This document shows, one piece after another, positions 30,669 through 33,212 of a stretch of 64,000 bases of DNA. Every line of letters starts with the position of its first letter. The stretch's first letter is position 1. The DNA is taken from contig JAWBBW010000001.1 of assembly GCA_038824035.1 (NCBI GenBank), positions 64,001 through 128,000 on the forward strand, given 5' to 3'. Both the position numbers and the translations under genes were made by a program. The notes beneath the pieces are model-generated. The model saw only the letters and a list, made by a program, of their open reading frames with translations. It ran no database searches and had not been told where the DNA came from. This stretch comes from Desulfurococcaceae archaeon (lineage in GTDB: Archaea > Thermoproteota > Thermoprotei_A > Sulfolobales > Desulfurococcaceae).

Positions 30669-31937
30669 TTATGGGACAATTCTAGTCCGGTCTCTGACAA
30701 ATAACACTGCCTCCCTTATGTTCTCCAGGCCCAGGATCTTCATCAACAATCTCTCAATACCCAGTCCGAACCCGCCATGTGGTGGTATACCGTATTTGAA
30801 TGCCTCTAGGTAGAACTCGAAATCAGCTGGGTCTAGGCCTTTATCCCTTATAGCCTCTATTAGTTTTTCATACCTATGTTCTCTCTGCCCACCACTCGCT
30901 ATTTCCAACCCTTTAAAATCAAGATCGAATTTCCTAGTATACACGCCGTCCTCCTCTCTCATGTAGTAAAACGCTGTTGAACTCCATGGAAAACCCACTA
31001 TGAAATATAGGACATGTCCCTTGCTCTCCATGATCTCCCCTAGTTTCCTCTCAGCTTGATCGCTGAGATCCTCGTTCTCGGGGACATCGATGCCCTCGTT
31101 CCTGAGTATATCTATTGCCTCCGTGAACTTGATTCTCTTGACAGGTGTAGTGATCTTAGGGGGCTCTACACCGAGTAATTCTAATTCCTCTTTGTAATTC
31201 CTAGCCACGTGGTCGATTATATATGCGATCAGGTTTTCCAAGGTATTCATGACATCCTCCACGCCATCTATAAACCCTTGTTCAACATCTATTCCCCATG
31301 ATTCATTCAAATGCCTGGGTGTATTGAATTTCTCGGCCCTGAAATAAGGGGTGATCTCATATACTTTCGTGAAACCATTGATCAACATTTGTTTATACAA
31401 TTGAGGGCTTTGGCTTAGAAAAGCATTTCTCTCGAAATACTCGACCTTGAACAGAGTTGCACCGCCCTCTGCCCCGGCAGCGACAATTTTCGGTGTCTGG
31501 ATCTCTGTGAACCCGTTTCTCTCAAGATATTCACGAGCGGCTTTGATAACTCCTGCCCTGATCCTGAATATAGCCTTTTCAACGGGGTTTCTCAATAACA
31601 ACCACCTATACTTGATCCGCGTATCCAGCAATGTGGGAACTTTTCCAACAGTGTCCACGGGCAATGGCTCCCTCGGAGTAGAGTATATCATTATCCTGGA
31701 TACCTGGTATTCAACCCCTCTCTTGCTTCTCTGTGTTTCTGAGACTTGTCCTTCAAAACACAAGGCTGTACCAATATCGATGTTTTTCGCCAAATTATAC
31801 AGCTCAGGGTCTCTGTCTTGTTTTAAAACCAATACATTTATTTTGACAGTGTCATCGGCTGTTTCCAAGATAAGTACCTTGCCCACGGCGACTTTCCTGA
31901 TTACCCAGCCACATTTTCTCTCCAAGTAGTTCACCAT
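30669..31937 (-). CDS. aspS: Aspartate--tRNA ligase (archaeal type)
   Basis: AEGGATLF, LSQSPQLYKQ, FRAE, EIASGGQR, PPHGGFGLGIER. Confidence 0.96.
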   Translation of the reverse strand: MVNYLERKCGWVIRKVAVGKVLILETADDTVKINVLVLKQDRDPELYNLAKNIDIGTALCFEGQVSETQRSKRGVEYQVSRIMIYSTPREPLPVDTVGKVPTLLDTRIKYRWLLLRNPVEKAIFRIRAGVIKAAREYLERNGFTEIQTPKIVAAGAEGGATLFKVEYFERNAFLSQSPQLYKQMLINGFTKVYEITPYFRAEKFNTPRHLNESWGIDVEQGFIDGVEDVMNTLENLIAYIIDHVARNYKEELELLGVEPPKITTPVKRIKFTEAIDILRNEGIDVPENEDLSDQAERKLGEIMESKGHVLYFIVGFPWSSTAFYYMREEDGVYTRKFDLDFKGLEIASGGQREHRYEKLIEAIRDKGLDPADFEFYLEAFKYGIPPHGGFGLGIERLLMKILGLENIREAVLFVRDRTRIVP

Positions 31938-32019
31938 GAATATTTGATGATATTGTTAATATTACAATACTGGCCTCTCAGTTTAAATTTTATAAGAAGC
32001 CTGGACAAATAATTAAAAT

Positions 32020-32159
32020 GGGCCAAACGTCCCCTCCCCATCTGCCAGGACCCGGTTTTAATGAAACGGTCACTGTCGAAGAACCGGGCATCCCTGGATG
32101 GGGGGAAACCGGGTACCCGAGGGATTAACCTGGCAGGATACCCGGGGGACGGGCTAGTC
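32020..32159 (+). ncRNA. Structured ncRNA: K-turn H/ACA-like hairpin plus second hairpin, enclosed by a BHB-like motif
   Basis: GC-rich island in an AT-rich intergenic region; almost every base assignable to a helix, K-turn or pocket; upstream TTTATAA and downstream pyrimidine tract. Confidence 0.75.
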
Positions 32160-32271
32160 TCTCGTTTCCTCTCTTCTATGAAATCGTTTCAATAATGATC
32201 TCTCGACGCTTAAAACCATATAATGACGATGAGGATAGAATGGCGGGGCCGGGGATACGACCCCGGTCTGA

Positions 32272-32372
32272 TAGCGGGGGGTGGATTTGAACCACCGACC
32301 TCGGGGTTATGAGCTTCGCGGGGCCTGTTTCAACGGCGCCTCCCGCGGGCTACCAGGCTGCCCTACCCCGCT
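32272..32372 (-). tRNA. Initiator tRNA-Met(CAT) with 27-nt non-canonical intron at 30/31 (32315-32341)
   Basis: A1-U72 acceptor AGCGGGG/CCCCGCT; G29G30G31:C39C40C41 restored after splicing; BHB helix CGCG/CGCG with GGA and AAG bulges; 74 nt mature. Confidence 0.92.
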
Positions 32373-32447
32373 ACTCAGCCCCGCCGTTTTTTAAATTATA
32401 GTAGAAAAGGGTGTTTTAAACCCTATGTCTTTGTCTAAGTTTCCGGT

Positions 32448-33212
32448 TTATTTTAACACACTTAAAGGGGTAAATACCTTAGCTGGGTAGAAGGGAAGTA
32501 TATGCCTAGTTGTCTTAGGAGGGAAGACATATCCTTCCTTGACCTTTGACACCACAATTTCTTTGGTCAATGCTCTGCGGATAAATATGTATGATAACTT
32601 GTTCTCTATGATATCACTTACAGCATCGTTTATTTCCCCGTAATATATGAGCGATAAAAGCTCATTAGAACACAGCTTATCCAGGATACGTGTGACTAGT
32701 TTTTGCCCTTCTAATCCACCATTGATTTCGAAACAACTATCTTTACTTATCGCTATAAAAGATATGTTTTCGCTGAAAATATTGCTCCCGGAGATTATGT
32801 CTCCTAGCCCATGTCCACATTTCTCGACATCAATGCCTTTCTTCGATAACTCCTCTATGATGTGATGCATATCCCCAGTGATGCCTGGATACCATGTTTT
32901 TAGCTCAATACTGGGATTGAAGTAATCAACTATGACCGAGGGTATTTTGGTTAAACCAAGGTTCTTGACAGCTGCCCATCTATGATGGCCATCTATGATC
33001 ATGTATTTGCCTTGGCTATTTATAGGAGATATCACTATTGGCATATCAACTGCTTTATCCTTTAAAAATCTCTTTATTAAGCCGTCCAGCCTTGACTCAA
33101 CGATTTCCTCGTGGATCACTAGTTTATCGATATCCATTAGCAATGGTTCAATTACAATGTATGGTATGTGTAGACTAGGGATCTTGATTGATATCTCACA
33201 ACGTGATCCCAA
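32448..33212 (-). CDS. serK: Free serine kinase SerK (ParB/Srx-like fold)
   Basis: IHEE, IIDGHHRW, WYP, FPPKTTRH; co-located with a serA-like gene and a class V aminotransferase. Confidence 0.8.
   Translation of the reverse strand: MGSRCEISIKIPSLHIPYIVIEPLLMDIDKLVIHEEIVESRLDGLIKRFLKDKAVDMPIVISPINSQGKYMIIDGHHRWAAVKNLGLTKIPSVIVDYFNPSIELKTWYPGITGDMHHIIEELSKKGIDVEKCGHGLGDIISGSNIFSENISFIAISKDSCFEINGGLEGQKLVTRILDKLCSNELLSLIYYGEINDAVSDIIENKLSYIFIRRALTKEIVVSKVKEGYVFPPKTTRHILPFYPAKVFTPLSVLK

What the first reader, a model, noticed from the sequence alone, without database searches (positions are those of the whole stretch)
32020..32159. Self-targeting H/ACA-like RNA enclosed by a bulge-helix-bulge: candidate circular 'guide plus own substrate' RNA
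Seen by manual pairing on the + strand. P1 CGTCCC(32028-33)/GGGACG(32146-51) closes a three-way junction. Arm 1 has lower stem CTCCCCATC(32034-42)/GATGGGGGG(32097-105) followed by AAA(32106-08), an internal pocket TGCCAGG(32043-49) and ATCCCT(32090-95), upper stem CCCGGTTTT/AGAACCGGG, then a canonical K-turn (AAT bulge, GA 32063-64/GA 32078-79, ACGG/CTGT). Arm 2 is CCGGGTACCC(32109-18)/GGATACCCGG(32136-45), and its loop AGGGAT-TAA-CCTGGCA is the exact complement of both pocket strands, leaving U32126 unpaired where an H/ACA target U sits. The ends form GGCC(32021-24)/GGCT(32152-55) with 3-nt bulges AAA and AGT 3' of the helix, the same geometry as the tRNA-intron BHBs in this window. TTTATAA lies upstream (~31989-95) and a pyrimidine tract downstream. 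Established: archaeal H/ACA guides are stem-pocket-stem-K-turn plus ANA box, bound by L7Ae and Cbf5; EndA cuts BHBs and excised pieces can be circularised. Inference: a ~131-nt circle (32027-32157) that modifies or auto-inhibits itself, or acts as a Cbf5/L7Ae decoy or switch. I do not recognise it as a known family. The outer BHB helix is only one G-C pair, so circularisation is the weaker part of the model.
Basis: partly seen in the sequence, partly recalled or inferred. Interest (0 to 1): 0.9.

Follow-up and report, generated by a model that had tools for sequence, protein, structure and literature searches.

The report
Splice-motif-bounded RNA that binds itself
This is a previously undescribed small non-coding RNA of one family of heat-loving archaea: its ends form the motif that the tRNA-splicing enzyme cuts, and one of its loops plugs into its own guide-like pocket, so it looks like a guide RNA carrying a built-in mock target.

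Summary
Window 32021-32159 (+) is one member of a conserved, single-copy non-coding RNA family. I collected 41 distinct sequences. A covariance model found one copy each in 26 of 40 genomes of the window's GTDB family, and none in 36 genomes of the 12 other families of the order. No Rfam family matches.

Three features are supported by covariation:
- **Nested helices.** 95% of cells are paired, and 30 of 36 pairs show double changes.
- **Two-part pairing of the arm-2 loop with both strands of the arm-1 internal loop.** Mean energy is -21 kcal/mol with a sequence's own loop, against -13 with loops of other members.
- **A terminal bulge-helix-bulge.** The central helix is 4 bp, and both bulges are exactly 3 nt. 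A short outer helix appears only at the 3-nt offset.

The box H/ACA label is only partly right:
- The kink-turn is canonical only in the window.
- Helix 2 is 9 bp, not 5-6 bp.
- The ANA box is not conserved.
- The "target" base is U in a minority of members.
- No rRNA target was found.

Most likely this is a stand-alone RNA excised by the splicing endonuclease EndA, probably as a 131-nt circle (32027-32157), and locked by guide:substrate-like pairing within the molecule. Its function, its expression and its circularity remain untested.

The parts
31989..31995 (+). TATA-like box TTTATAA, about 26-27 nt upstream of the inferred start at 32018-32020
   Evidence: Sequence. A/T-rich boxes sit at a similar distance in relatives. 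The transcription start itself is inferred, not shown.
32018..32020 (+). Inferred short leader. G32020 pairs with C32159, giving an outer helix h of only 1 bp in this member
   Evidence: leader/tail pairing occurs specifically at a 3-nt bulge offset across the family. The window itself has 1 bp.
32021..32024 (+). 5' strand (GGCC) of the central 4-bp helix H of the bulge-helix-bulge; pairs with 32152-32155
   Evidence: H is 4 bp in 17 of 17 sequences; 100% of cells paired, with pair types G-U, G-C and A-U at position 1.
32025..32027 (+). 3-nt bulge 1 (AAA). Predicted EndA cut between 32026 and 32027
   Evidence: bulge 1 is always 3 nt and reads A-R-N in 40 of 41 sequences. The cut position is inferred from the canonical rule (PMC4090602, passages).
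32028..32033 (+). P1 5' strand (inner helix h'); pairs with 32146-32151
   Evidence: 6 of 6 pairs show changes on both sides; 99% of cells paired.
32034..32042 (+). Arm 1 lower stem, 5' strand; pairs with 32097-32105
   Evidence: helices 3 and 4; all pairs co-vary.
32043..32050 (+). 5' strand of the internal loop ('pocket'). 32043-32049 pairs with loop bases 32129-32135
32051..32059 (+). Arm 1 upper stem, 5' strand (9 bp); pairs with 32080-32088
   Evidence: helix 5: 9 of 9 pairs co-vary.
32060..32079 (+). Kink-turn: AAU bulge 32060-62, GA 32063-64 opposite GA 32078-79, and a 4-bp cap hairpin 32066-69/32073-76
   Evidence: strict consensus scan. Canonical in the window only (1 of 17); near-consensus with a 5-nt bulge in L045 and L059.
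32080..32088 (+). Arm 1 upper stem, 3' strand
32089..32096 (+). 3' strand of the internal loop. 32090-32095 pairs with loop bases 32120-32125
32097..32105 (+). Arm 1 lower stem, 3' strand
32106..32108 (+). Junction AAA.
   Evidence: Sequences: members with a middle hairpin have no A-rich junction here.
32109..32118 (+). Arm 2 stem, 5' strand; pairs with 32136-32145. 32116-32120 with 32137-32138 can alternatively form a K-loop-like CCC-GA/GA motif
   Evidence: second motif hit in win, L042, L085; helices 6 and 7.
32119..32135 (+). Arm 2 loop: 32120-25 pairs with the 3' pocket strand, 32126-28 (UAA) is unpaired, 32129-35 pairs with the 5' pocket strand
32136..32145 (+). Arm 2 stem, 3' strand
32146..32151 (+). 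P1 3' strand
32152..32155 (+). 3' strand (GGCT) of the central helix H
32156..32158 (+). 3-nt bulge 2 (AGT). Predicted EndA cut between 32157 and 32158
   Evidence: the first base is A in 41 of 41 sequences, and the outer helix is seen only at a 3-nt offset.
32159..32180 (+). Pyrimidine/T-rich trailer, the likely terminator region
   Evidence: Sequence. T-runs follow the RNA in relatives. Termination is inferred.

Best explanation
Window 32021-32159 (+) encodes a member of a conserved, single-copy, stand-alone non-coding RNA family restricted, as far as searched, to one GTDB family of Desulfurococcales.

**Shown by comparative analysis**
1. The ends form a bulge-helix-bulge: a short outer helix, a 3-nt bulge, a 4-bp helix GGCY/GGCY, a 3-nt bulge, and inner helix P1.
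2. P1 closes a three-way junction. In longer members it is a four-way junction.
3. Arm 1 is a long hairpin with a large internal loop.
4. The hairpin loop of the last arm pairs with both strands of that internal loop. Its 5' half pairs with the 3' strand and its 3' half with the 5' strand, and 1-4 bases stay free next to the upper stem. This is the topology of an H/ACA guide bound to its substrate, but within one molecule.

**Inferred**
- The primary transcript starts 1-6 nt before the 4-bp helix.
- The splicing endonuclease EndA cuts after the second base of each bulge (window 32026|32027 and 32157|32158).
- An RtcB-type ligase closes the 131-nt piece into a circle, whose P1 is then capped by a 7-nt loop carrying the conserved GGCY-A.
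- The loop-in-pocket pairing locks the two arms side by side into a compact fold that resists exonucleases and heat.
- In the window species a canonical kink-turn should recruit L7Ae.

The RNA is not a canonical trans-acting H/ACA guide. I think it most likely acts as a structural or protein-binding particle, possibly derived from an H/ACA RNA, whose pocket is permanently filled by a built-in mock substrate.
For: **Family**
- 14 of 26 genome loci with 500 nt or more upstream of aspS carry it.
- A descriptor finds it in 19 of 30 metagenome loci with adequate flank.
- Model R2 finds exactly one hit in each of 26 of 40 genomes (17 of 22 genera) of the family. It finds 0 of 36 genomes in the 12 other families under lax filters and 0 of 132 under strict filters.
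- There is no paralogue in the own genome.

**Nested structure**
- On 36 sequences, 95.1% of cells are paired and 30 of 36 pairs change on both sides. 0 of 500 shuffles reach this, and slid controls give 30-54% paired.

**Pairing within the molecule**
- Mean duplex energy of a pocket with its own loop is -21.4 kcal/mol, against -12.7 with loops of other members. The own loop ranks 1st or 2nd of 13 in 12 of 13 sequences. 0 of 300 shuffles match it in 9 of 13.
- The new clade gives 0-3 of 300.
- A search with automatically defined arms and loops finds the geometry in 26 of 41 sequences.
- Compensatory swaps between close relatives are visible. L053 against L057: CCCCGG/CCGGGG becomes CCCCGA/UCGGGG. 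L043 against L056: CCUCGCA becomes CCCCGCA, with GCGAGG becoming GCGGGG. L058 against L098: CCAGAU/AUCUGG becomes CCAGAC/GUCUGG.
- The lower stem and the arm-2 stem differ by 2 bp or less in 13 of 15 sequences, as side-by-side packing requires.

**Bulge-helix-bulge**
- H is 4 bp and the 5' bulge is 3 nt in 17 of 17 sequences.
- The outer helix sums to 73 bp across 41 sequences at a 3-nt offset, with 31 of 41 having 1 bp or more and 23 of 41 having 2 bp or more. Offsets 0-2 and 4-7 give 11-29 bp and 3-6 of 41. Five types of first pair occur.
- The genome has two EndA-domain genes and RtcB.
- A tRNA intron in the same window uses the same geometry (read).
Against: - **No expression data.** Three metatranscriptome runs were listed, but 0 reads lay on 31900-32450, which is no test.
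- **Weak outer helix here.** It is only 1 bp in the window and 0 bp in 10 of 41 members. Cutting would then need the relaxed substrate range of crenarchaeal EndA.
- **Biased definitions.** Pockets and loops were defined by hand, with the complementarity already in view.
- **Misses of the automated search.** It missed 15 of 41 sequences. Eight are short-loop members (Thermogladius type: L046, L048, L050, L102, L103, L105, L106, L156) that have no conserved complementarity. Seven are failures of the automatic arm or loop definition.
- **An alternative fold exists.** The same complementarity can be drawn as a nested fold, and RNAfold prefers that fold for L084 and L085. A conformational switch is therefore not excluded.
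- **Fitted alignments.** A5 and A8 were fitted to the model's structure, which inflates the paired percentages.
- **Patchy occurrence.** The RNA was not found in the other genomes of the window's own genus: 0 of 16 with model R1, of which 3 were also searched with R2 (0 of 3). It is therefore dispensable or turns over quickly.
- **No function shown.**
Confidence: 0.6

Rival explanations
1. It is an ordinary trans-acting box H/ACA guide RNA. The pocket guides pseudouridylation of an rRNA or tRNA uridine through Cbf5-Nop10-Gar1-L7Ae, and arm 2 is an incidental second hairpin or a regulatory mimic of the true target.
For: - The layout is hairpin, pocket, hairpin, with a canonical kink-turn in the window and AAA after the lower stem.
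- Cbf5 is encoded in the genome.
- The own assembly lacks 23S rRNA and holds only 16S positions 4-857, so a trans target cannot be fully excluded in this organism.
- Crenarchaeal H/ACA RNAs can be atypical (PMC11077068: abstract and sections 19 and 22 read).
Against: - Pocket and loop sequences differ widely between genera yet stay complementary to each other. A conserved rRNA site could not co-vary like that.
- The best genome-wide match to the pocket is the RNA's own loop.
- In two relatives with complete 16S-23S operons there is no site with 0 mismatches. With 1 mismatch or fewer there are 0 sites in one and 1 in the other, and that one has a lone G as the unpaired base.
- Helix 2 is 9 bp against the 5-6 bp rule. 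The AAA is about 17 nt from the upper stem against 14 nt (PMC2651775, passages).
- The ANA box and kink-turn are not conserved.
Confidence: 0.05
2. It is a self-modifying RNA. Cbf5 converts U32126 of the RNA's own loop to pseudouridine, and this modification is the purpose of the pairing within the molecule.
For: - U32126 is the first unpaired base 3' of the duplex with the 3' pocket strand, where an H/ACA target U sits.
Against: - The equivalent base is U in only 8 of the 26 sequences with an automatically found pairing (win, L045, L059, L126, L144, L148, L047, L152). It is A, C or G in the others.
- The window has three unpaired bases, not two.
- The geometric H/ACA rules are not met (see the membership table).
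Confidence: 0.1
3. It is a linear small RNA. The conserved terminal helix with its 3-nt bulge is only a stabilising or protein-binding terminal stem, and no EndA cutting or circularisation takes place.
For: - The transcript probably starts only 1-6 nt before the helix. The outer helix is therefore very short: 1 bp in the window and 0 bp in 10 of 41 members.
- The GGCY sequence of the helix is conserved, which a purely structural EndA substrate does not need.
- No read data exist.
Against: - The geometry is exact: a 4-bp helix and a 3-nt bulge in all 17 sequences checked.
- Leader-trailer pairing appears only at a 3-nt offset and has five pair types at its first position. A plain terminal stem gives no reason for that.
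Confidence: 0.3
4. It is a conformational switch. The pocket-loop complementarity encodes an alternative nested fold that competes with the lower stem and the arm-2 stem, for example before and after processing or with temperature, and does not form together with them as a pseudoknot.
For: - RNAfold's minimum-energy structures for L084 and L085 pair the 5' pocket strand with the loop in a nested fold.
- In L051 and L045 part of the pocket is closed by competing pairs in the minimum-energy fold.
Against: - The lower stem and the arm-2 stem both co-vary strongly, so they form.
- Their similar lengths, within 2 bp in 13 of 15 sequences, fit simultaneous side-by-side docking.
- Each duplex is 3-8 bp, shorter than a helical turn, as in H/ACA guide-substrate complexes (the comparison to solved complexes is recalled, not read).
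Confidence: 0.12

Closest known systems
Archaeal box H/ACA guide sRNA bound to its substrate (Cbf5-Nop10-Gar1-L7Ae particle)
   Same: - A hairpin with a lower stem, a large internal loop and an upper stem.
- Two-part pairing of a target with both loop strands in the same polarity. Duplexes are 3-8 bp each, and 1-4 bases stay unpaired next to the upper stem.
- A canonical kink-turn above the pocket in the window member.
   Different: - The 'substrate' is a hairpin loop of the same molecule and co-evolves with the pocket.
- Helix 2 is 9 bp here and 7-13 bp in relatives, not 5-6 bp.
- There is no conserved ANA box at 14 nt.
- The target base is mostly not U.
- The kink-turn is absent from most relatives.
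- The ends are a bulge-helix-bulge rather than a free ACA tail.
Atypical H/ACA RNAs and sR666 of Sulfolobus islandicus (Li, Wu and Ye 2024, PMC11077068)
   Same: - Crenarchaeal Cbf5-associated RNAs that break the classical rules. Some lack the lower stem and ACA.
- sR563 and sR109 are modified within their own 5' guide.
- sR666 binds L7Ae and Cbf5-Nop10 but has no free guide strands.
   Different: - Those RNAs have no dedicated arm that pairs with both pocket strands, and no bulge-helix-bulge is reported.
- Model R2 found nothing outside the window's own GTDB family in the order searched. Sulfolobales genomes were not specifically searched.
Circular RNAs excised at a bulge-helix-bulge in archaea: tRNA and rRNA introns, pre-rRNA circles, permuted SRP RNA of Thermoproteus (PMC4731332, search listing only)
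   Same: - A 3-nt bulge, a 4-bp helix and a 3-nt bulge, with flanking helices.
- EndA and RtcB are present in the genome.
- The predicted product is a circle.
   Different: - There is no host gene. The 'exons' are a leader of a few nucleotides and a trailer, so the excised piece is the only plausible product.
- The RNA is not a permuted form of SRP RNA, RNase P RNA or 5S rRNA, which are all found elsewhere in the genome.

Membership tests
Archaeal box H/ACA guide sRNA | Hairpin with a lower stem, a large internal loop (pseudouridylation pocket) and an upper stem | tested here: met
   Helices 3-5 co-vary.
Archaeal box H/ACA guide sRNA | Kink-turn or K-loop in the upper part of the hairpin (the L7Ae site) | tested here: inconclusive
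   Strict consensus is met in the window. It is met at this site in only 1 of 17 family members, with near-consensus (5-nt bulge) in L045 and L059. L042, L085 and L047 show no GA/GA motif.
Archaeal box H/ACA guide sRNA | Helix 2 of 5 or 6 bp between the pocket and the kink-turn (rule quoted in PMC2651775, passage read) | tested here: not met
   The window has 9 bp (32051-59 with 32080-88). Relatives have 7-13 bp.
Archaeal box H/ACA guide sRNA | ACA/ANA box directly 3' of the lower stem, 14 nt from the target U (PMC2651775, passage read) | tested here: not met
   In the window, AAA at 32106-08 lies 17 nt after the last upper-stem pair (counted). Members with a middle hairpin (L045, L051, L052, L053, L058) have no A-rich box after the lower stem.
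Archaeal box H/ACA guide sRNA | Two-part complementarity to an rRNA or tRNA site that leaves a U and its 3' neighbour unpaired | tested here: not met
   Only the RNA's own loop matches. There is no 0-mismatch site in the rRNA operons of two relatives. The own genome lacks 23S and about half of 16S, so the test is incomplete for the window organism. The base at the target position of the own loop is U in 8 of 26 sequences.
Archaeal box H/ACA guide sRNA | Bound by Cbf5-Nop10-Gar1 and L7Ae | not testable with these tools
   The Cbf5 gene is present. No binding data exist.
Bulge-helix-bulge (hBHBh') substrate of the archaeal splicing endonuclease | Central helix of exactly 4 bp | tested here: met
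   17 of 17 sequences. All 41 show GGCY, AGCC or AGCU opposite GGCY. 100% of cells are paired.
Bulge-helix-bulge (hBHBh') substrate of the archaeal splicing endonuclease | Two 3-nt bulges on opposite strands, each 3' of its strand of the central helix | tested here: met
   Bulge 1 is 3 nt in all 17 sequences checked. Bulge 2 is fixed at 3 nt by the offset test: 73 bp of outer pairing at offset 3 against 11-29 bp at other offsets.
Bulge-helix-bulge (hBHBh') substrate of the archaeal splicing endonuclease | Flanking helices h and h' (relaxed forms hBH or HBh' are accepted by crenarchaeal enzymes; PMC4090602, passages read) | tested here: inconclusive
   h' (P1) is 3-8 bp in 17 of 17. h is 2 bp or more in 23 of 41 sequences, 1 bp in 8 (the window included) and 0 bp in 10.
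Bulge-helix-bulge (hBHBh') substrate of the archaeal splicing endonuclease | Actual cutting in both bulges and ligation of the excised piece | not testable with these tools
   0 reads were laid from 3 metatranscriptome runs. Two EndA-domain genes and RtcB are present.
Any Rfam family (release 15) | Score at or above the gathering threshold | tested here: not met
   Nothing in the window at gathering thresholds. Only noise in the region (E of 0.72 or more). Only tRNAs in the loci of 8 relatives at E up to 0.05.

The most novel reading that the evidence does not exclude
This is a dedicated gene whose only product is an EndA-excised, RtcB-closed circular RNA. It assembles with L7Ae and Cbf5-Nop10 as an H/ACA-type particle whose pocket is permanently occupied by a built-in, mostly unmodifiable mock substrate. 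It would be a catalytically idle particle that buffers or stores the pseudouridylation and L7Ae machinery, or has a new function borrowed from it. It would be the first guide RNA fused to its own substrate, and the first stand-alone bulge-helix-bulge circle gene.
Probability: 0.2. Interest if true: 0.9.

Novelty: new variant of a known kind. Interest (0 to 1): 0.8.

Why it matters
If confirmed, this adds a new structured RNA family to the Archaea, built from two known modules used in an unknown way.

- **A splicing motif without a host gene.** A tRNA-splicing motif would serve as the maturation signal of an RNA that has no host gene.
- **Guide:substrate pairing turned inward.** The geometry of an H/ACA guide bound to its substrate would be used within one molecule.

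It would enlarge the known substrate set of the archaeal splicing endonuclease and ligase. It would give a natural example of a small circular RNA that is stable at high temperature. It would also offer a handle on how guide RNPs can be taken over for tasks other than modification.

The family is well suited to experiment. It is single-copy and 120-190 nt long. It occurs in cultured Thermogladius isolates and in several single-contig genomes. Natural variants with and without the internal pairing exist for comparison.

Tried and rejected
**Searches that found nothing**
- BLAST of the 151-nt region in 41 relatives found only the window itself. The family is invisible to sequence search.
- The single-sequence model R1 found 3 of 151, 3 of 40 and 1 of 17 genomes. 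It was replaced by R2.
- Rfam gave no family.
- RNase P RNA, SRP RNA and 5S rRNA are elsewhere in the genome, so it is not one of these. I did not scan a circularly permuted version against Rfam, because that needs a joined sequence.
- A descriptor scan of the own genome gave 15 hits. The other 14 had a shorter P1 (5-6 bp). I folded four of them and none resembled this RNA.

**Weak or failed tests**
- The first unconstrained and maximal-duplex searches for complementarity were too permissive or too strict and were discarded. The cross-species score matrix was not discriminating; the energy matrix was.
- Lower-stem and arm-2 stem lengths do not correlate significantly (Spearman 0.32, p = 0.24). 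They are only similar in length.
- The pattern search in G056 and G041 gave an uninformative list of hundreds of hits. It was replaced by fetching the rRNA operons.
- Neighbouring genes give no functional hint. They are a class II aaRS of the D/K/N type, SerK, a 2-hydroxyacid dehydrogenase, PadR and inositol-1-phosphate synthase. The ORF downstream in relatives has no Pfam family.

**Expression**
- No RNA holder was listed for the window. The three metatranscriptome runs offered from the same study gave 0 laid reads, which is no test.

**Literature**
- Six searches found no description of such an RNA. 'H/ACA' cannot be used as a search term. The library holds only open-access papers, and supplements are closed. 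The sR666 structure and the sRNA tables of PMC11077068, which may bear on this, were therefore not seen.
Full report
**1. The observation**

RNAfold returns the same architecture:
- an outer 4-bp helix, 32021-24 with 32152-55;
- P1, 32028-33 with 32146-51;
- arm 1, made of a lower stem 32034-42/32097-105, an internal loop, and an upper stem 32051-59/32080-88;
- arm 2, 32109-18/32136-45.

The energy is -68.4 kcal/mol, z = -3.0, and 2 of 200 shuffles fold as well. The opposite strand folds less well. A strict consensus scan confirms the kink-turn: 9-bp C stem, AAU bulge, tandem GA/GA, 4-bp NC stem.

The loop 32120-32135 is complementary to both pocket strands. None of 300 or 200 shuffled loops pairs as well. 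It is also the best two-part match to the pocket in the whole 1.33-Mb assembly. No ORF of 60 aa or more overlaps the interval. No Rfam family matches it at gathering or relaxed thresholds.

**2. It is a conserved gene**

BLAST finds nothing in 41 relatives, but synteny does.

- *Genome loci.* The gene to the left (30669-31937, minus strand) is a class II aminoacyl-tRNA synthetase of the Asp/Lys/Asn type. I fetched its relatives' loci (records named Desulfurococcaceae, Desulfurococcus, Staphylothermus and Thermogladius). In 14 of the 26 loci with 500 nt or more of upstream flank, a divergently oriented RNA of 121-191 nt lies at the same place. It has nearly invariant ends, 5' (G/A)GCY-ARN-P1 and 3' P1'-GGCY-A. 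The other 12 loci have the initiator tRNA or other genes there instead.
- *Metagenome loci.* A descriptor finds the RNA in 19 of 30 loci with adequate flank. These include a new clade: L098, L104, L107 and L108.
- *Covariance models.* A model built from the window alone (R1) recovers 7 of 14 relatives with exact ends. A model from ten sequences (R2) finds exactly one hit in each of 26 of 40 genomes (17 of 22 genera) of the window's GTDB family. It finds none in 36 genomes of the 12 other families of the order under lax filters and none in 132 under strict filters.
- *Own genus.* The RNA was not found in the other genomes of the window's genus: 0 of 16 with R1, of which 3 were also searched with R2 (0 of 3).
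- *Own genome.* There is no paralogue.

In all I hold 41 distinct sequences. Rfam matches none of the 8 relatives tested. RNase P RNA, SRP RNA and 5S rRNA lie elsewhere in the genome.

**3. Nested structure**

On the model-fitted alignment of 36 sequences:
- 95.1% of 1104 cells form standard pairs;
- 30 of 36 pairs show changes on both sides;
- no shuffle of 500 reaches any observed measure;
- sliding the 3' partner by 1-3 columns drops pairing to 30-54% (the same picture with 10 sequences).

The alignment is fitted to the structure, so the percentages lean towards it. Even so, the number of pair types per position (up to six) is not an artefact of fitting.

Longer members insert a third hairpin between arm 1 and the last arm.

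**4. Loop-in-pocket pairing**

In every lineage except the short-loop one, the hairpin loop of the last arm pairs with the internal loop of arm 1. Its 5' half pairs with the 3' strand and its 3' half with the 5' strand. The sequences differ between lineages. Each entry gives loop 5' half - unpaired bases - loop 3' half, then 5' pocket strand / 3' pocket strand:

| Sequence | Loop | Pocket strands |
|---|---|---|
| window | AGGGAU-UAA-CCUGGCA | UGCCAGG / AUCCCU |
| L045 | GUGGAGU-U-GCCUGGG | CCCGGGC / ACUCCAC |
| L043 | GGGU-A-UGCGAGG | CCUCGCA / ACCC |
| L058 | GGGCC-GA-AUCUGG | CCAGAU / GGCCC |
| L053 | GUGG-CA-CCGGGG | CCCCGG / CCAC |

The evidence:
- *Compensatory swaps.* Close relatives differ by compensatory swaps: L053 and L057, L043 and L056, L084 and L085, L058 and L098, L052 and L154.
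- *Energy test.* With hand-defined pockets and loops, the mean two-part duplex energy is -21.4 kcal/mol for a sequence's own loop and -12.7 for loops of other members. The own loop ranks first or second of 13 in 12 of 13 cases, and the second places are to sister sequences.
- *Automated search.* A search with automatically defined arms and loops finds the geometry in 26 of 41 sequences. Eight of the misses are the Thermogladius-type members. Their last arm is a 6-7-bp hairpin with a 4-5-nt loop, and they show no conserved complementarity. The other seven are failures of the automatic arm or loop definition. Six of them were found by hand (L042, L084, L085, L098, L104, and L137, whose loop is the same).
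- *Stem lengths.* The lower stem and the last arm's stem are within 2 bp of each other in 13 of 15 sequences. That is what a loop reaching back to the pocket needs. The lengths do not correlate significantly.

The same complementarity can also be drawn as an alternative nested fold, and RNAfold prefers that fold for L084 and L085. A switch remains a rival.

**5. The ends are a bulge-helix-bulge**

- In all 17 sequences checked, the outer helix is exactly 4 bp. It is followed on the 5' strand by exactly 3 nt and then directly by P1. The base after the 3' strand is A. Across the 41 distinct sequences the 5' bulge reads A-R-N in 40.
- I tested whether the few leader bases pair with the trailer. 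With 41 sequences, consecutive pairing starting after a 3-nt 3' bulge sums to 73 bp. 31 sequences have 1 bp or more and 23 have 2 bp or more. Bulge lengths 0-2 and 4-7 give 11-29 bp, and 3-6 sequences with 2 bp or more (earlier subsets).
- The first outer pair occurs as G-C, C-G, U-A, A-U and U-G. The nearly identical L102 and L103 differ by U-A against C-G.

This is the canonical arrangement of helix, 3-nt bulge, 4-bp helix, 3-nt bulge, helix. Each bulge lies 3' of its strand of the central helix, as in tRNA introns (PMC4090602, passages). The initiator-tRNA intron 150 nt away in this window shows the same arrangement, read: helix CGCG/CGCG, bulges GG|A and AA|G.

The window's own outer helix is a single G-C pair (32020 with 32159), so it is a relaxed form. 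Crenarchaeal endonucleases accept such forms (PMC4090602, passages). The genome has two EndA-domain genes and RtcB.

Applying the canonical cut, after the second bulge base, gives 32027-32157.

The TATA-like box at 31989-95 puts the start at about 32018-32020. In L084 a box 26-27 nt upstream of a 5-6-nt leader fits its 5-bp outer helix. The start sites are inferred.

**6. Is it a box H/ACA RNA?**

It works like a guide-substrate complex in topology, but it fails the membership tests.
- Published rules for archaeal H/ACA motifs ask for a 5- or 6-bp helix between the pocket and the kink-turn, and 14 nt from the target U to ACA (PMC2651775, passages). The window has 9 bp and about 17 nt.
- The A-rich box after the lower stem is missing in members with a middle hairpin.
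- The strict kink-turn is found at this site in 1 of 17 members.
- The base at the target position is U in 8 of 26 sequences, and A, C or G in the rest.
- No rRNA site fits the pockets of two relatives whose complete 16S-23S operons I fetched. There is none with 0 mismatches, and 0 and 1 with 1 mismatch or fewer.
- The window's own assembly lacks 23S and about half of 16S, so the trans-target test is incomplete there.

Cbf5 is encoded in the genome. In S. islandicus, Cbf5 binds atypical RNAs, modifies some within their own guide, and binds a hairpin (sR666) that has no free guide (PMC11077068, abstract and sections 19, 20 and 22). A Cbf5 link therefore remains possible, but it is not shown.

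**7. Mechanism I commit to**

The RNA is a stand-alone gene. Its short-leadered transcript is cut by EndA at both bulges, and the body is ligated to a circle. I put cutting at about 0.6 and a circle at about 0.5. The body folds into a junction whose two long arms are tied together by the loop-in-pocket pairing (about 0.85 that this pairing is real and under selection). This gives a compact, exonuclease-resistant particle. In the window species L7Ae probably binds the kink-turn (about 0.7). Cbf5 binding is about 0.3, and self-pseudouridylation at U32126 about 0.1. The function is unknown. A structural or protein-buffering role fits the mostly non-U mock substrate best.

**8. Limits**

- There is no expression evidence. 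Three metatranscriptome runs gave 0 reads on 31900-32450, which is no test.
- Pocket and loop definitions were made by hand.
- The alignments were fitted to the model.
- Kin are not independent.
- Six literature searches found no description. The library holds only open-access papers, and supplements were closed.

Noticed in passing
window 32272-32373 (-): An initiator-type tRNA (anticodon CAU) carries a 27-nt intron at a non-canonical position inside the anticodon stem (30/31), with a bulge-helix-bulge: helix CGCG/CGCG, bulges GG|A and AA|G. ARAGORN misses it. Rfam reports it only below threshold, as tRNA-Sec at 28.7 bits.
   Followed up: partly
window 32242-32249 and 32378-32385: An 8-nt inverted repeat, GGCGGGGC and GCCCCGCC, flanks the initiator tRNA gene, so its leader and trailer can pair. 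Similar flanking repeats occur around the same tRNA in relatives (for example L034, L035, L039). This may be a processing stem.
   Followed up: no
window 32224-32273 (+): A weak match (13.7 bits, E = 0.72) to a box C/D sRNA model (sR43). It has C-box-like GAUGAG and D-box-like CUGA motifs and abuts the 3' end of the initiator tRNA on the other strand. It is probably noise.
   Followed up: no
window 32109-32145 (+): Arm 2 of the RNA can form a second, K-loop-like motif: a 7-bp stem, a CCC bulge, and GA 32119-20 opposite GA 32137-38. The motif is shared with L042 and L085 only. If real, the window RNA has two L7Ae sites.
   Followed up: partly
whole assembly G000: The assembly (99.7% complete by marker genes) has no detectable 23S rRNA and only 16S positions 4-857, at a contig end (C2:104-977). 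Targets of rRNA modification cannot be assessed in this genome.
   Followed up: yes
L046, L048, L050, L102, L103, L105, L106, L156: A short subgroup of 117-121 nt (named records: Thermogladius). It keeps the bulge-helix-bulge, P1 and arm 1. Its internal loop is only about 4 + 4 nt, and its last arm is a conserved GCCACC-loop-GGUGGC hairpin with no conserved complementarity to the loop. It is a natural 'no docking' variant.
   Followed up: partly
L043, L046-L048, L050, L051, L056, L058 (downstream of the RNA): In many relatives the RNA is followed on the same strand by a conserved ORF of about 216 aa starting MVK(H/R/N)..., with no Pfam family. In the window the initiator tRNA lies there instead.
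   Followed up: partly
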